A program made the position numbers. From NCBI GenBank assembly GCA_038999725.1, contig JAWBWS010000001.1, positions 193,713 to 257,712 of the forward strand: a stretch of 64,000 bases of DNA, given 5' to 3'. Origin of the DNA: Candidatus Aenigmatarchaeota archaeon. Its GTDB lineage: Archaea > Aenigmatarchaeota > Aenigmatarchaeia > CG10238-14 > SCSR01. Shown here piece after piece: positions 33,001-39,000 of this stretch (positions are counted from its first letter, which is position 1; each line of letters opens with the position of its first letter).

Positions 33001-36000
33001 TTTAACAAACTTGGTAAGATCGCTAGAATAGGCGAAGATTTTAATTGTTTTGTTCATGACTTTTTCGGCATTTTTAACGCTACTCCCATTCTTACCGATT
33101 GCCATGCCAATTTTTTCTTCATCTACAATAAAGTAAATTATGTTCCCATCAATCAAACAGTCTTTAACAGGAACTCCAGTTAAATTTTCGAATAATGTCA
33201 TAAGCCTTATCGTTTCTGTATCAAATTTAATTGTCATTAAATCACTTTATCACTAACACACTCACCGGATATGGTTTACCACAAAGCACGCCAAGTTCTT
33301 TACTGCTCTTAGAAATAATTTCCACTTTTATGCCAGCAATTTTTGCATTGTGTTCAATTTCTTTCTTCATTTTTTCTGGAGTGTTTTGGGCAATAACAAT
33401 AAGTTTTGCTTTATTAAGTTTTATGAACTTTTTGCTTTCCCTATATCCCAGAATTACATTCCCAGCTTTATTTGCATCAAGAATTTCTTCTTCCAAATTC
33501 ATTTTTTCCCCTCCTCTTCAAATTTTGCTATTAGTTCAGGCATTCCTGTACCAGACGGAATAACTTGGCCTATCATCACATTTTCAAAAATACCTTTGAA
33601 TTCATCTACCTCATTTCTAATAGATGCTCTCACCAAGTGTTTGACAGTCTCTTCAAAGGCGGCTCTTGCAAGAATGGAGGTTTGGGATCCAGCAACACCA
33701 TATCTACCGATGGATTGAATTCTTCCGGTAGAGGTCATGATATCACCAACAAGAAATATGTGCCTTATATCAACATTCAGGCCTTGTTCTTCTAGAGTTT
33801 TCATGGCTTCTTTAACTATAACATTTCTAGCAGCTTCTATCCCCAGGACTTTGAAAGTCTCATAAATATTATTTGTGATGGTTCTTGTCTCGTCAACCTC
33901 TTCCATCTTCAAAACCTCTTCAAGATTTGATCCAAGTGTGTTTATGAGCCAATCTTCCCCCTCCCTTCTGACAATTGCGTTTTTAATTCCTTTTATACCT
34001 CCAAAATGAAGATCCAATATTTTTTCTCTCAACACTTGAAGCTCTTTAATGCTAACCTCTTCTTTTGGGCGTACGACAATACTTTTAGCCTTTTCTTTTA
34101 CTCGAACCTCTGGAAAGTTTTCTTTAATTATTTTTATCACTTTTCCCAATTTCCTCAAGTCATCTACCTCTATTTCAATTACATTTTCACTCAAGTTTAT
34201 TGCAACCCTTTTCACCACATTGGATATTCTTCTTTCAATTATATCTTCAGCCAACTCTCTTGCTTTTTCCATGTTATTGAATTCCTTTTTGAGATAAATT
34301 TCCATGACAGGAGTTTCCAATTCTTTTTTGGCATCAAAAATTTCCACAAGTCTAGGCAAACCATAAGTAACCTTAATTCCAGCTGAACCGGCAAAGTGAT
34401 AAGTACGCATTGTCATTTGAGTTGCAGGCTCAGAAATACTTTGGGCGGCAATGATTCCAATAGCCTCACCAGGCTCAAACATCGATTTAAGAAATATTTT
34501 TTTAACCTCTTCCAAGACTTTTTCTTTCTTTTCTTCACTCAGTTTCAGTTCTTTTGATATTTTTTCCACTTCATCTATCAAAATTTTTGGAAGTTCAATC
34601 TCAGACAAATCGCTCTGCAATTTTTCTGACATTTATTCCCCCCTTCTCAATTTTTGAAGGATCGAGCCCATCCTCTCCGGCTAAAAACTGTATTATTTTG
34701 TTAGAACTATCTCTCACAGTTCCATCATATTCAACTTTAAGATCTTGAAGTGCTCCGATAAGTCTTCTTTCCATGTAGCCGGAATGCCTCGTCTTAAGAG
34801 ATTTATCCATTAATGATTCTCTACTATTCATTGCATCAAAGAAAAATTGGAATGGGGTAAGACCGCTTTTGAAGCCCCTATCCACGAATCCCCTTGCTTG
34901 CAAACTCATGTCCCCTCTTTTGAAGTGGGGGAAAGTTCTTTCATAATAACCCTTCTCTATTCTCTCCCCCATTATTGTCTCTTGACCTATGAGCGCCGTA
35001 GTTTGGACAAAATTAACAAGGCTGCCCCTTGCTCCACTTTTAGCCATATCAATTACAGAAGTCTCTTTCACATATTTTACCAATACTTCTTCCACTTCCT
35101 TCAAGGCCTTGCTCAATCTCCTTTTTATCAATGTTTCCAAGCTTTCTTTTGGAGTTCTTCCTATCAAAACTTTAAGCTCACCTTTTTCGAACTCTTTTAT
35201 CATTTCATCCACATCTTTCTTAACATTTTTAAGTACAATATCTACTTCATCCTTTGCCTCTTTTGGCAAGTCTAATTCTGAAATGCCAACGGAGAATCCA
35301 TGCCTTGTTATATACTCGAGAGAAAGTTTTATCATTTTGAACAAAAAGTTGCTGGTGAATTCAGCTCCATATTCTCTCTCCATTTTATCTATTATTTTTC
35401 CCTCCTCGTCACCTAGAGCTGCTTTGTCAATTGCTCCGGAGATGAGTTTACCATTTTTAATTATCACCATCTCACCAGATTTTGCTTTGTGTTGAATTGA
35501 AAAATCTTTTGGTAAGAATAAGCTGAAAATTTCCTTTCCACTCATGGTTTGCTTATCTGGTATTTCTATTTCTGGATCAACCTTTCTTATCAAATCCACA
35601 AATTCTTCCCTATCAAATTTTCTATCATCTTTGGTTAGGAGATAAAGACCAGAAATACAATCTTTTGTGGCTCCAATGATAGGACCAGAAAATCTAGGAC
35701 TTCTTATGTGTTTGTGCACATCCATCAAACACAAAGCTTCTGCTTGTGCCTCTTCTGTTTGTGGTATGTGCAAGTTCATTTCATCTCCATCAAAATCAGC
35801 ATTATATGGCGGACAAACAGCAGTGTTAAGCCTGAAAGTTTTGAAAGGCGTCACTCTTATCTTATGCGCCATCATACTCATTCTATGTAAACTTGGTTGC
35901 CTGTTAAAAAGTGAAATGTCGCCGTCTCTTATATGTCTCTCAACTATATAACCTGGAGCAAGTTCTTTACAAATTTCCTCTTTATTTGTTTCGGTGATTT

Positions 36001-39000
36001 TCTTCCTCCTTCCATCAGGTCTTATGACATAATTTGCACCAGGCCAAACTTCACTTCCATTCATAACAAGTCTTTTCATTTCTTCCAGATTTTTTTCATT
36101 CACCCTAACTGGAATCGTTAATTCTCTAGCCACAATTTCGGGTACACCAACCTCATCCAGATTAATAAGAGGATCGGGACTTATGACTGTTCTTGCTGAG
36201 AAGTTAACTCTCTTTCCAGCAAGGTTCCCCCTAAACCTTCCTTCCTTTGTTTTCAATCTTTGAGAAAGAGTCTTCAAAATTCTTCCCGATCTATGCCTTG
36301 CTGGGGGCACACCAGAAAGCTCGTTATCAAAATAGGTACTGATATGATATTGGAGGAGTTCCCAAAGGTCTTCGATGATGAACTCTGGGGCACCAAGGTC
36401 TATATTTTCTCTCAATCTTTCATTTATCCTCACAATATCAACAAGTTTGTGTGTTAAATCATCTTCTGATCTTTCTCCAGTCTCCAGTGTTATCGATGGT
36501 CTAACTGTCACAGGTGGTATGGGCAAAAGCGTGAGGATGAGCCACTCAGGTCTTACATTTTTAACTCCAATGATGTTCAAATCTTCTGTCTGTATTTTTT
36601 CCAATCTTTCCCTAATTTTTATAGGGTTAAGTATTTCATTTTCTTCAACAAAAGTGTAGGGTTTAATTAACCTAAGTTTTCCTTGTGAGGCACCACAATA
36701 AGGACATTTTTTCTTCACCATCTTCACTACTTCTTTGAAAGTAATTTTTTCTGTTTTTATTTTGTTCAAGTCCTTTTCGTCAATTAAAATTCTACCACAC
36801 TTTCTGCAAAACATTTTCAAAAGTGTAAGGATGAACTTAACATAGTGGACATGAATTATCGGTCTCGTTAATTCAAGTATACCAAAGTGCCCTTGGCATT
36901 CACCAACAGTACCACCACAAGTTCTACATCTTACACCAGGATCAACAACTCCCAACCTCGGGTCCATAAGCCCGCCCTCTATTGGATATCCTTCCTGATC
37001 GTACAGCTCGGTTTTTGTAATCTTTGCTACCGCCATCTTTTTTATCAATTCAGGATTAAGTAGACTAAACTCTATTCTTTTTACCCTCATTTCTTCCCCA
37101 CTTACAACGATTTTTGGGTAAATCAACATGCTTTTGAGTTCATCCAACATTAGTTTGAAGGCATAACTCATCTCCACATCAAAAATCTTGCTTTCACCAC
37201 AAACAGGACAATACCTTCTGTTTTTTGTTCTTTCATGTATAGCAACCATACCACATTCAGAGCAAACTGGAATCACTGTTTTATCAGAGTCAAATCTTTC
37301 TTTTAAAACAAGAGCGGCACCATGTGCTATCAAAACATCTTTCTCCATTTCCCCTAACCTTAGCCCACCTTCTTTACTTCTTCCTTCTGTTGGTTGTCTC
37401 GTTAACAAGGTTACAGGTCCTCTAGACCTTGCATGAATCTTGTTTGAGACAAGATGATCTAGCTTTTGATAGAAGCATGGGCCAATAAATATTTCAACTT
37501 CAAACTTCTTTCCAGTTCTTCCATCAATCATAACTTCTTTACCATCATCCCTGAAGCCATAAGATTTAAGTATTTTTCTTATTTCTTCCTCCGAGGTTGG
37601 ATTAAAGACTGGAGAATAAACAGTTTTTCCGGTCAGAGCAGCCACTTTTGCTGCAAGCTGTTCAAGCAATTGACCAACTGTCATTCTCGATGGAATTCCA
37701 TGTGGATTGAAAATTATATCCGGAACAATTCCACTTTCTGTGAATGGCATGTCTTCTTGTGGTACAACAAGTCCTACAACACCTTTTTGTCCATGCCTGC
37801 TCGCAAACTTATCTCCTATCTCGGGAATTTTTAAGCTCCTAACCCTTACTTTAACAAGTTTTGTGCCATCTATAGTTTCCGTCACAAAAACTTTATCCAC
37901 AATTCCGCTATCACCATGTCTCATTCTTACAGAAGTTTCCCTTATGTTTTCTATTCCCGTGATAAATTGATCCATGCTTCCCAAGAACCTGAGGGGGGAA
38001 ATTCTTCCAACTAAGACTTCATCAGATTTTACTTCTGTTTCTTGATTTACAACGCCATCTTCTGGTAGATGCTTATAAGCATCCTCACCGGCGTAGCCTC
38101 TGACACCAGGTTCAGGAATTCCTATCACATCTTCTTGTCCCCCCATGTACCTTTTCTGCTCAGCCTCATAGGTTCTGAACATGTAAGACCAGAAAAGCCC
38201 TCTTTGAATTGAGCTTGAATTTATGATTATTGCATCATCCATGTTGAAGCCTTGGAAGGAAGTAACAGCAACTACAACATTTGCTCCATTGGGATGTTTT
38301 TCATATCCTGCAATTTTATGTGCATGAGTCTGAACAAGTGGAACTTGTGGATAAATTAATACATTGGATTTGGTGTCAACCCTACTCAAATAGTTTGTGG
38401 TAAAAAGACCTATTGATTGACCAACCATCTTTGCACCATAGTTTACTCTGTCTCCCCTGTTGAATTCAGCATAAGGTATGAAAGACGCTAAGAAACCAAG
38501 TATTGTGGCTGGGTTGATTTCAAGGTGTGTGTGTTCAGGAGTTAAATCCTCTTCTCTTAAAGCAATATAACAATTTTCCTCTTCTTCTGCATCTACATAT
38601 TCGATTATTCCCTGGGTTACCAAATCTTCCCATTTTATGGCACCGGCCTTAAGCTTCTGTATATGATCTTCCGTAAGTTTTGATTTGCCATTTTCAACAA
38701 TTATAAGTGGTCTTCTCACTCTTCCACTATCTGTTAAGATTCTAACTTCATCCAAATGTTTATGATAAGCGACATTAATCTGAGAAGAAATCAACCCCTT
38801 TCTTCTCCTTTCCCTTATTTCTTTTGCAAATTTTTCAGGTTCTCTTGTTGTTCCAATAAATTTACCATCGATAAAAATATCGGCCATCAGACCACCATTT
38901 TTTGAATTGAAGAATAAAGACTTTTTCTTTCATTCTCACCCAACCCCTTTGTAATTTCTGCCATTATTGCAAGATGTTTTCTCAATCCTATTGTCGCTCC

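What a model noticed while it worked through the whole genome (the two positions that open the first line are those of the whole stretch)
34601..38887. RNA polymerase subunits B' and A' fused into one 1,428-aa polypeptide
The gene g00221 (C1:228313-232599, minus) encodes in one uninterrupted frame the C-terminal half of RNA polymerase subunit B (Rpo2C/B', Pfam Rpb2_4 to Rpb2_7, residues 4-594) directly followed, after a 6-residue linker, by subunit A' (Rpo1N, Rpb1_1 to Rpb1_5, residues 601-1407), flanked by separate B'' (g00222) and A'' (g00220) genes. I read this as a natural covalent fusion of the two catalytic subunits of an archaeal RNA polymerase, the archaeal counterpart of the beta-beta' fusion of Helicobacter/Wolbachia, and it has been gained or lost many times within this order. 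New would be a B''/B'-A'/A'' subunit layout for an archaeal RNAP, useful for recombinant/structural work and as a phylogene [...]
Evidence so far: Pfam rows of g00221: Rpb2_4 4-65, Rpb2_5 86-119, Rpb2_6 134-505, Rpb2_7 507-594, Rpb1_1 601-889, Rpb1_2 891-1056, Rpb1_3 1060-1204, Rpb1_4 1230-1335, Rpb1_5 1342-1407; junction sequence ...LKSMLIYPKIVVSGEEMRVKRIEFSLLNP... has no stop. Contigs from two runs of the source study cover the junction without a difference. A 241-aa query across the junction searched in 117 genomes of the order: 44 other genomes give one match over the whole query without stop in an open frame of >=1,420 aa (e.g. G053 of the same genus, 90% id, frame 1,442 aa), while most others, among them 6 of the 7 other genomes of this genus, give two matches in separate frames of ~600 and ~840 aa. 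Two full-text searches found n [...]
(Added by a program. Inside this text positions count along the whole contig: contig position 193,713 is position 1 of the stretch shown here. "Call 12" and the like, gene names such as g00115 and contig names such as C1 are that model's own, and its searches are not shown. The text may have been shortened before it was handed on; [...] marks where a part breaks off. The agent that wrote the report below was given it as the finding of a first reader that could run no searches.)

Follow-up and report, generated by a model that had tools for sequence, protein, structure and literature searches.

The report
Fused RNA polymerase B'-A' gene
In this tiny archaeon two neighbouring genes for the catalytic heart of RNA polymerase have merged into one, a merger that has happened again and again among its relatives and seems to be tolerated because the two protein ends already sit side by side in the enzyme.

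Summary
Confirmed. Window 34601-38887 (-) is one open 1,428-aa frame: RNAP subunit B' (Rpb2_4-7) runs without a stop into A' (Rpb1_1-5). It sits in a canonical Rpo5-B''-[B'A']-A''-NusA-S12-S7-EF2 operon of an Aenigmatarchaeota (DPANN) genome.

Independent contigs of two runs cover the junction without a difference. The sister species has the same fusion with a different DNA sequence. It is the only B'/A' copy in the genome.

In the order, 45 of 105 genomes with a readable junction are fused. Two trees each need at least 13 changes of state. The window's fusion is a recent gain inside a genus whose other six species are split.

Split relatives show why. B' ends 4 nt of overlap to 5 nt before the A' start codon, and its last codons are the Shine-Dalgarno site of A'. 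One small indel or a lost stop therefore joins the frames, and no linker is added.

The join is structurally plausible. A model of the junction superposes best on the engineered B-A'-A'' clamp of Pyrococcus (3QQC).

Elsewhere in the phylum there are whole-B-A' fusions, unsplit A, and single all-in-one B-A proteins. No protein-level evidence exists, and I found no description in print.

The parts
40376..40615 (-). rpoH / Rpo5 (79 aa), first gene of the RNAP operon
   Evidence: Pfam RNA_pol_Rpb5_C, E 2.6e-28
38887..40413 (-). Subunit B'' (Rpo2N). The mechanical ORF has 508 aa from a GTG. The likely start is the ATG at 40371 (M15), 4 nt after the rpoH stop. Its TGA stop overlaps the B'-A' ATG by one base.
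   Evidence: Pfam Rpb2_1, Rpb2_2, Rpb2_3; junction read
37091..38887 (-). B' moiety (Rpo2C) of the fused gene, residues 1-599, ending ...IYPKIVVSGEE. It includes the C-terminal Cys4 zinc ribbon.
   Evidence: Pfam Rpb2_4 to Rpb2_7, residues 4-594; translation
37082..37111 (-). Fusion junction ATCGTTGTAAGTGGGGAAGAAATGAGGGTA. The former A' start codon ATG (M600, 37088-37090) is now in frame with B'. No stop is present, and a weakened Shine-Dalgarno relic (GGGG) lies upstream.
   Evidence: Sequence; comparison with 105 relatives; Logan contigs X1 record 5 and X3 record 14 cover it with 0 differences
34601..37090 (-). A' moiety (Rpo1N) of the fused gene, residues 600-1428 plus the stop. It holds the NADFDGD active-site motif.
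   Evidence: Pfam Rpb1_1 to Rpb1_5 (first part), residues 601-1407; motif read
33499..34632 (-). Subunit A'' (Rpo1C), 377 aa. Its start overlaps the end of the fused gene by 32 nt.
   Evidence: Pfam Rpb1_5 profile positions 67-266; junction read
32821..33237 (-). NusA-like KH-domain protein; downstream part of the conserved operon
   Evidence: Pfam KH_2, KH_5
31787..32824 (-). Ribosomal proteins S12 (32393-32824) and S7 (31787-32386)
   Evidence: Pfam

Best explanation
This is a genuine natural gene fusion. The gene for RNAP subunit B' (Rpo2C) has lost its stop and runs in frame into the gene for A' (Rpo1N). Every B' made in this cell is therefore covalently joined to an A'. The ~160-kDa chain is built into the polymerase together with separate B'' and A''.

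How it arose (inferred from relatives): in split genomes B' and A' are translationally coupled. The B' stop lies from 4 nt of overlap to 5 nt before the A' ATG, and the last B' codons (K-E-E, AAGGAGGAG) are themselves the Shine-Dalgarno site of A'. A single-base indel, or loss of the stop where the frames already agree, joins the two frames end to end.

Why it is tolerated (inferred from structure): the B C-terminal strand and the A' N-terminal strand lie next to each other in the clamp, so the native termini can be joined without a linker.

I read the fusion as nearly neutral. Possible side benefits are a forced 1:1 ratio of the two subunits and pre-tethered assembly. Young fusions such as this one still carry the old ATG. 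Older fused clades have lost it and are locked into the fused state.
For: SHOWN IN THIS GENOME
- Open 1,428-codon frame with both sets of domains.
- Only one B'/A' locus in the genome (1 match).
- Contigs assembled independently from runs X1 (record 5, 36914-37394, depth 23) and X3 (record 14, 36914-37326, depth 9) cover the junction with 0 differences and no indels.

SHOWN IN RELATIVES
- Sister species G081 (90% identity) is fused with a different junction DNA sequence.
- G000+G081 form a supported pair (99 and 95) inside a genus clade of 8 (100). The other 6 members are out-of-frame split, and the next outgroup is also split.
- Among 57 split junctions, the spacer between the B' stop and the A' start is -4 to +5 nt in 54. 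A GGAG/GAGG/GGTG motif lies within 18 nt upstream of the A' start in 53.
- The genome's 16S 3' end carries GGATCACCTCC.
- Junction length is the same in fused (median 6 residues) and split (median 5) forms.
- Whole genera are uniformly fused: g43 7 of 7, g45 9 of 9.
- 21 of 45 fused junctions have no ATG/GTG/TTG at all. A' cannot be made separately there, which argues that the fused protein works.

STRUCTURE
- The junction piece aligns in one ungapped stretch (E 3.5e-61) across the engineered B-A' join of PDB 3QQC chain A.
- That engineered B(1053-1115)-A'(3-318)-A''(334-371) fusion is soluble, folded and binds Spt4/5 (PMC3094117, passages read).
- An AlphaFold2 model of residues 536-920 (53-row alignment, pLDDT 77.6, pTM 0.78) puts the join in a beta-hairpin: strands at model residues 54-61 and 66-74, block pLDDT 90/76/92.
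- The model's best PDB match is 3QQC_A (TM 0.78/0.79, rmsd 2.8 A over 365 columns).
Against: - There is no protein or RNA evidence.
- Post-translational cleavage at the junction cannot be excluded.
- In this genome the old A' start codon (M600) survives in frame behind a weakened SD-like GGGG, so some free A' could be made by internal initiation.
- The contigs that confirm the junction come from runs of one study (P1), which may be the source of the assembly. A contig of a second study (X4, record 22) reaches only 37083, a few bases past the ATG, so it does not bridge the junction by the tool's standard.
- The same contig holds two frame-breaking insertions in the EF-2 gene about 5.5 kb away. 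If these are artefacts, indels do occur in this assembly.
- Neutrality and any assembly benefit are inference only.
Confidence: 0.8

Rival explanations
1. Assembly or sequencing artefact: a one-base indel error at the junction falsely joins two separate genes in this assembly.
For: Fused and split forms differ by as little as one base at the junction. The same contig has two frame-breaking insertions in the essential, single-copy EF-2 gene.
Against: Logan contigs of two runs match the junction with 0 differences at depths 23 and 9. The junction has no long homopolymer. Sister species G081 is also fused with a different junction sequence. 44 further genomes of the order and 18 listed elsewhere in the phylum are fused, with clade-wise consistency. 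The identical protein is on record on 2 contigs at NCBI.
Confidence: 0.03
2. The ORF is fused but the working subunits are separate. The chain is cut at the junction after translation, or free A' comes from internal initiation at M600 while B' is released by a frameshift or by proteolysis.
For: The ATG of the former A' start is kept in frame in G000 and G081, with an SD-like stretch upstream. A TAA lies in the +1 frame just upstream, within GTTGTAAGT. 11 of 45 fused junctions keep an ATG.
Against: 21 of 45 fused junctions have no possible start codon, and whole genera are like this. No protease site or intein-like element is present: the junction is as long as in split forms. The join is predicted to be an ordered hairpin, not an exposed loop. 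An engineered covalent join is compatible with a folded clamp.
Confidence: 0.12
3. The fusion is adaptive rather than neutral. It is selected in reduced DPANN genomes because it enforces B':A' stoichiometry or replaces an assembly step or chaperone.
For: Archaeal RNAP assembly in vivo is modular and sensitive to subunit stoichiometry (PMC13556214, abstract and passages). The fusion persists through whole genera and extends to whole-B-A' forms.
Against: Closely related species with similarly sized genomes differ in state: 6 split against 2 fused in one genus. At least 13 changes in one order fit a nearly neutral toggle better than directional selection. I tested no correlation with genome size or gene content.
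Confidence: 0.2

Closest known systems
Bacterial rpoB-rpoC (beta-beta') fusion of Helicobacter, Wolinella and Wolbachia
   Same: The C-terminus of the second-largest catalytic subunit is joined in one ORF to the N-terminus of the largest. It arose from adjacent genes of one operon (PMC1557499 and PMC7483510, passages). From its title alone, Zakharova et al. 1999 also reports overlapping rpoB/rpoC genes in relatives; that paper was not held.
   Different: The bacterial case joins two complete subunits (~2,900 aa) and is described as a rare event that marks a clade. Here only the C-terminal half of a split B is joined to the N-terminal part of a split A, in Archaea, and the state changed at least 13 times within one order.
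Engineered Pyrococcus furiosus RNAP clamp (rClamp), PDB 3QQC
   Same: It makes the same covalent join of the B C-terminus to the A' N-terminus. The natural junction aligns across the engineered one without a gap, and the AF2 model superposes at TM 0.78. The construct folds and binds Spt4/5 (PMC3094117).
   Different: The construct is artificial: a 436-residue chain (381 in the fold-search library) made of three fragments joined by Gly/Ala/Ser linkers, and it also joins A''. The natural protein is the full-length B'+A' and uses its own termini as the connector.
Canonical split layout B''/B'/A'/A'' of methanogens and other Euryarchaeota, and of most DPANN
   Same: Same gene order, same operon context (Rpo5 upstream; NusA, S12, S7, EF-2 downstream) and the same split points for B''|B' and A'|A''. 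60 of 105 readable relatives in the order keep the B'|A' split.
   Different: The B'|A' boundary is erased here.
Secondary A'-A'' fusion reported for Pacearchaeota, and ancestral unsplit A of Thaumarchaeota/Korarchaeota
   Same: These are other cases where the pieces of the archaeal large subunits are joined differently (PMC5484517, passages). An unsplit A also occurs in this phylum (G227).
   Different: They join pieces of the same subunit, not two different subunits. That paper calls such events rare in RNAP history, which does not hold for the B'|A' boundary in this phylum.

Membership tests
Archaeal RNAP subunit B' (Rpo2C) | Rpb2 domains 4-7 in order, above Pfam gathering scores | tested here: met
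   Rpb2_4, _5, _6, _7 at residues 4-594; bits 78.8, 39.3, 440.3, 81.7, all above their cut-offs
Archaeal RNAP subunit B' (Rpo2C) | C-terminal four-cysteine zinc ribbon of the clamp | tested here: met
   Two Cys pairs, in CSECG and in CPVCG. C7, C10 and C25 are invariant in the 53-row alignment. That this ribbon defines the clamp element is recalled, not from a call.
Archaeal RNAP subunit A' (Rpo1N) | Rpb1 domains 1-4 plus the first part of domain 5, with the remainder in a separate A'' | tested here: met
   Rpb1_1 to _4 complete. Rpb1_5 profile positions 1-66 are in the fused protein and 67-266 in A''.
Archaeal RNAP subunit A' (Rpo1N) | Catalytic NADFDGD metal-binding motif | tested here: met
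   YNADFDGDEMNLH is present in the translation. The motif's role is recalled.
Natural fusion of the two largest RNAP subunits (beta-beta' type) | One uninterrupted ORF joining the C-terminus of the second-largest subunit to the N-terminus of the largest | tested here: met
   junction confirmed by independent contigs
Natural fusion of the two largest RNAP subunits (beta-beta' type) | No separate copies of the fused subunits elsewhere in the genome | tested here: met
   1 match for the 1,428-aa protein in the genome's own 9 contigs (93% complete)
Natural fusion of the two largest RNAP subunits (beta-beta' type) | The fused polypeptide is present as one chain in the purified enzyme | not testable with these tools
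   The organism is uncultured. This needs proteomics or expression.
Natural fusion of the two largest RNAP subunits (beta-beta' type) | The join is compatible with the native fold (termini adjacent) | tested here: met
   Ungapped alignment across the join of 3QQC_A. The AF2 junction is a hairpin, and the model matches 3QQC_A best at TM 0.78. This rests on a prediction plus an engineered analogue, not on a structure of this protein.

The most novel reading that the evidence does not exclude
In Aenigmatarchaeota the way the RNAP catalytic core is cut into chains is almost free to vary. Each of the three boundaries (B''|B', B'|A', A'|A'') is open in some lineages and closed in others.

The series may run as far as natural single-chain cores that carry all of B and all of A in one polypeptide of 2,200-2,800 aa: P0126, with an intein, and the more distant P0268 and P0344.

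If these are real, a cellular multisubunit RNAP can work with its whole double-psi-beta-barrel core as one chain. Splits and fusions of RNAP genes would then be useless as deep phylogenetic markers in this part of the tree. They would instead be a natural experiment on how assembly order and subunit ratio constrain the enzyme.
Probability: 0.35. Interest if true: 0.7.

Novelty: new variant of a known kind. Interest (0 to 1): 0.55.

Why it matters
**Subunit composition.** This gives Archaea a counterpart of the bacterial beta-beta' fusion. The textbook subunit list of archaeal RNAP is not fixed. Here the enzyme would have three large chains (B'', B'A', A'') instead of four.

**Phylogenetic markers.** Splits and fusions of RNAP large subunits have been treated as rare events and used to argue about the root of Archaea (PMC5484517). 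At least 13 changes at one boundary within one order show that at least this boundary is labile.

**Gene architecture.** The anatomy shows how operon design sets up a fusion. The ribosome-binding site of the downstream gene is encoded in the last codons of the upstream one, and the stop and start codons almost touch.

**Practical use.** A natural covalent B'-A' chain, and the whole-B-A' forms, could simplify recombinant reconstitution and structural work on archaeal RNAP. The fused proteins are currently annotated only as 'subunit A'', which miscounts B' as missing.

Tried and rejected
**Expression.** No RNA holder was listed among the 6 runs that hold the stretch, so nothing can be said about transcription.

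**Reads from a second study.** Contig X4 record 22 starts at 37083 and does not bridge the junction. X5 does not cover it.

**Literature.** Full-text searches found no description of an archaeal B'-A' (Rpo2C-Rpo1N) fusion.
- 10.64898/2026.06.17.729505 (passages) mentions only the B'/B'' split.
- PMC5484517 (passages) mentions only A'/A''.
- Zakharova 1999 (PMC93870) and Lane & Darst 2010 (PMC2813377) are not held, so I could not check whether they mention archaeal cases.
- Supplements were not opened.

**Genomes encoding an all-in-one B-A protein.** The search for related loci with P0268 in genome contigs found none. No genome among the 370 of the phylum shows a stop-free frame above about 1,950 aa. 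The all-in-one proteins therefore rest on single Logan contigs.

**Ancestral state of the order.** Not inferred. I picked the 20 outgroup rows from genomes with a single junction match, so they are biased towards fused or same-frame forms.

**Earlier notes of this scan.** None near this place.

**Other readings considered and dropped.**
- An intein or protease site at the junction: the junction is no longer than in split forms.
- A pseudogene: all domains score far above their cut-offs.

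
Full report
**1. The observation**

The minus strand of window 34601-38887 carries one ORF of 1,428 codons. 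Pfam places Rpb2 domains 4-7 at residues 4-594 and Rpb1 domains 1-5 (first 66 profile positions of domain 5) at residues 601-1407, all far above the curated cut-offs. The translation reads ...IYPKIVVSGEEMRVKRIEF... across the boundary, and the DNA there (ATCGTTGTAAGTGGGGAAGAAATGAGGGTA, 37111-37082) has no stop.

The neighbours form the usual archaeal RNAP operon:
- Rpo5/H at 40376-40615.
- B'' at 38887-40413, probably starting at the ATG at 40371. Its TGA overlaps the next ATG by one base.
- The fused gene.
- A'' at 33499-34632, overlapping the fused gene by 32 nt.
- A NusA-like KH protein, S12, S7 and EF-2.

The genome has 730 kb in 9 contigs and is 93% complete. The 90%-identity cluster that holds this exact protein is named 'Candidatus Aenigmatarchaeota archaeon' by NCBI.

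**2. Is it real in this genome?**

Searching the genome with the whole protein finds one locus only, so there is no separate B' or A' gene.

Logan contigs of runs X1 (record 5, 36914-37394, depth 23) and X3 (record 14, 36914-37326, depth 9) lie on the junction with no difference and no indel. Both runs belong to one study, which may be the source of the assembly. A contig of a second study (X4) ends a few bases past the ATG and does not bridge the junction.

The stronger argument comes from relatives. The nearest species, G081 (90% identity over the junction piece), is also fused, and its junction DNA differs at several positions. An error at the same place in two independent assemblies is very unlikely. 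I put the artefact reading at about 3%.

One caution: 5.5 kb away the same contig has two frame-breaking insertions in EF-2 (section 8).

**3. Distribution**

In the order, 117 genomes were searched and 110 had a match. I fetched the junction of 108 of them and classified 106 that hold both halves.

Four rows were corrected by eye:
- G087 has a run of N at the junction.
- G067 and G070 have a broken B' match.
- G058 had a wrong A' match.

| State | Genomes |
|---|---|
| Fused (including the window's) | 45 |
| Same frame, separated by one or two stops | 9 |
| Different frames | 51 |
| Undetermined | 5 |

The five undetermined are G087, G006 and G037 (at contig ends) and G024 and G106 (not fetched).

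In the rest of the phylum, 253 further genomes were searched and 234 had a match. The listing shows 18 more stop-free single matches and 35 same-frame matches with a stop. Nine of the 18 lie in frames of 1,916-1,941 aa.

I read two of these other loci:
- G118 has one 1,916-aa gene for all of B plus A', followed by a 375-aa A''.
- G227 has an unsplit B (1,099 aa), one TAG, then an unsplit A of about 1,185 aa in the same frame.

In the protein collection, all 120 listed clusters related to the junction carry both Rpb2_6 and Rpb1_1. They come from NCBI, JGI, ENA and Logan. About 23 of them also carry Rpb2_1-3, so they are whole-B fusions. Where named, they are called 'subunit A'' or 'subunit B'.

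**4. How often did it change?**

I built trees from about 480 residues of B' and 600 of A' flanking the junction, leaving out the junction itself.

| Tree | Data | Changes, order only (105 rows) | Changes, with 20 outgroup rows | Forced by well-supported branches |
|---|---|---|---|---|
| FastTree | 126 rows, 1,080 columns | 13 | 17 | 15 |
| IQ-TREE quick | 553 columns | 13 | 17 | 12 |

Counts are changes between fused and not fused.

The window's genome and G081 are sisters (support 99 and 95) inside the genus clade of 8 (support 100). The other six members are out-of-frame split, and the next branch (G095) is also split. By parsimony the window's fusion is a recent gain in the ancestor of these two species.

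Counts of changes do not tell gains from losses. My outgroups were chosen from single-match genomes and are biased, so I make no claim about the ancestral state of the order.

**5. Anatomy and mechanism of origin**

The split relatives explain the pattern.
- B' ends ...IYPK-x-V-x-K-E-E-stop.
- The A' ATG follows from 4 nt of overlap (ATGA) to 5 nt later in 54 of 57 split junctions.
- A GGAG/GAGG/GGTG motif lies within 18 nt upstream of that ATG in 53 of 57. It therefore sits inside the last B' codons, typically AAGGAGGAG = K-E-E.
- The genome's 16S rRNA ends in GGATCACCTCC, so these motifs are true Shine-Dalgarno partners.

With stop and start nearly touching, one small indel puts the ATG in frame and removes the stop. 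Where the two genes already share a frame (9 genomes in the order, at least 35 elsewhere), one base change in the stop is enough.

Comparison with the nearest split species (G085, G084) shows that the window's junction is one base shorter between the conserved codons and has no stop. A single-base deletion in the stop region of a G085-like sequence would suffice. This step is inferred.

No linker is gained. The number of residues between the positions aligned to 594 and 601 is 4-6 in fused forms and 4-7 (tail plus head) in split forms.

**6. Does the fused protein work as one chain?**

This is inferred, not shown. Three lines support it.

First, B' has no stop of its own and no second gene, so all B' is made attached to A'.

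Second, 21 of 45 fused junctions have no ATG, GTG or TTG near the old start, and whole genera are uniformly fused (g43 7 of 7, g45 9 of 9). In these, A' cannot be made separately, yet the genes stay intact.

Third, the join fits the structure.
- The junction piece aligns without a gap across the engineered B-A' join of PDB 3QQC chain A (E 3.5e-61).
- That construct (B 1053-1115, A' 3-318, A'' 334-371, short linkers) is soluble, folded and binds Spt4/5 (PMC3094117, passages read).
- An AlphaFold2 model of residues 536-920, built on 53 natural fused sequences, has pLDDT 77.6 and pTM 0.78. It makes the join the turn of a beta-hairpin between the last B' strand and the first A' strand.
- The model's best match in the PDB is 3QQC_A (TM 0.78/0.79, rmsd 2.8 A), ahead of the A' chains of whole archaeal polymerases.

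In the window's genome the old ATG (M600, 37088-37090) survives behind a weakened SD-like GGGG. Some free A' by internal initiation is possible, and cleavage cannot be excluded. I give these readings together about 12%.

**7. Comparison with what is known, and novelty**

The closest known case is the bacterial rpoB-rpoC fusion of Helicobacter, Wolinella and Wolbachia. It is described as a rare event that marks a clade (PMC1557499 and PMC7483510, passages). The topology is the same. Three things differ: the pieces joined are halves of already split subunits, the domain of life, and the frequency of change.

For Archaea, the literature I could search discusses only the B'/B'' split and the A'/A'' split or fusion, and calls such events rare (PMC5484517; 10.64898/2026.06.17.729505). 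Four searches found no description of a B'-A' fusion. Subscription papers and supplements were not seen.

I class this as a new variant of a known kind. It is present but unrecognised in public annotation.

A recent study of RNAP assembly in Methanococcus maripaludis shows a modular pathway with a stable Rpo3-11-2'2'' intermediate and sensitivity to subunit ratios (PMC13556214, abstract and passages). That gives a concrete frame for testing whether tethering Rpo2C to Rpo1N changes assembly.

**8. Things beyond the finding**

*All-in-one large subunits.* A search among long proteins and a search of 50%-identity representatives turned up proteins that hold all of B and all of A in one chain:
- P0126: 2,681 aa, with an intein in Rpb1_2. 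Its C-terminus aligns with the window's A'' at 46% identity.
- P0268: 2,214 aa.
- P0344: 2,786 aa.

Each rests on one Logan contig, and I could not find a genome that encodes one.

*Interrupted EF-2.* The single-copy EF-2 gene of the window is interrupted by two short insertions, of 13 and 20 nt, that are absent from five congeners.

| Insertion | RNA fold |
|---|---|
| 20 nt | Folds as helix, 3-nt bulge, 4-5 bp helix, 3-nt bulge, hairpin (MFE -27.9 kcal/mol, z -3.9) |
| 13 nt | Folds as helix, AAA bulge, 4-bp helix, loop (z -1.4) |

In both, the points at which excision restores the frame fall after the second base of a 3-nt bulge or its loop equivalent.

This is the geometry of bulge-helix-bulge introns. 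In archaeal mRNAs such introns are known for cbf5 of Crenarchaeota (PMC2738675, abstract as listed). The insertions may be mRNA mini-introns or an assembly artefact. I could not lay reads on them because that call was already spent.

**9. Verdict**

The fusion is real, recent in this lineage, recurrent in the order and explained by the anatomy of a translationally coupled junction. The known structure of the clamp makes it plausible.

It is not unique to this genome. It is unproven at the protein level, and it is an extension of a known kind of event rather than a new one. Interest 0.55.

Noticed in passing
window 31290-31309 and about 31445-31460 (minus strand), within the EF-2 gene 29394-31619: The only EF-2 gene of the genome is broken into three frames by two short insertions (20 nt and 13 nt, together 33 nt) that five congeners lack. 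The 20-nt insertion folds into a bulge-helix-bulge shape and the 13-nt one into a looser bulge-helix-loop form of it. Their excision points fall in 3-nt bulges (or the loop equivalent) either side of a 4-bp helix. They are candidate BHB mini-introns in an mRNA, or an assembly artefact.
   Followed up: partly
L110 (G118) 2000-7750 minus strand; also G121, G123, G127-G129, G136, G170 and G194: Other orders of the phylum have a single gene of about 1,916-1,941 aa for the whole of B (not split) fused to A', followed by a separate A''.
   Followed up: partly
L111 (G227) 2221-5787 and 5788-9087, minus strand: B is unsplit (1,099 aa) and A is unsplit (A'+A'' in one chain of about 1,185 aa). The two lie in the same frame, separated by a single TAG. 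This genome is one base change away from a 2,291-aa all-in-one gene.
   Followed up: partly
proteins P0126 (2,681 aa), P0268 (2,214 aa), P0344 (2,786 aa): These single polypeptides carry all Rpb2 and all Rpb1 domains. P0126 also has an intein in Rpb1_2, and its C-terminus aligns with the window's A''. Each is known from one Logan contig only, and the lineage is unknown for P0268 and P0344 (38% and 34% identity to the junction query).
   Followed up: partly
protein P0361 (1,665 aa; seen on 10 contigs, longest 79 kb): A whole B is fused to Rpb1_1 and only the first 124 of 166 profile positions of Rpb1_2. This may be a different cut point of the large subunits in another lineage. One source names it RPB2.
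   Followed up: no
L012 (G095), junction region: The stretch holding the Shine-Dalgarno site and the stop (GAAGGAGGAGTAATAT) is present twice in tandem between B' and A'. This gives two in-frame stops and shows that this junction is prone to slippage.
   Followed up: no
L063 (G067) and L009 (G070): The B' match is cut by an apparent frameshift or stop well upstream of the junction in these two genomes. These are probably assembly errors or decaying copies, and they were not examined.
   Followed up: no
L098 (G087), junction region: A run of N covers the B'-A' junction of this genome, so its state cannot be read, although the frame around it is 1,395 aa long.
   Followed up: no
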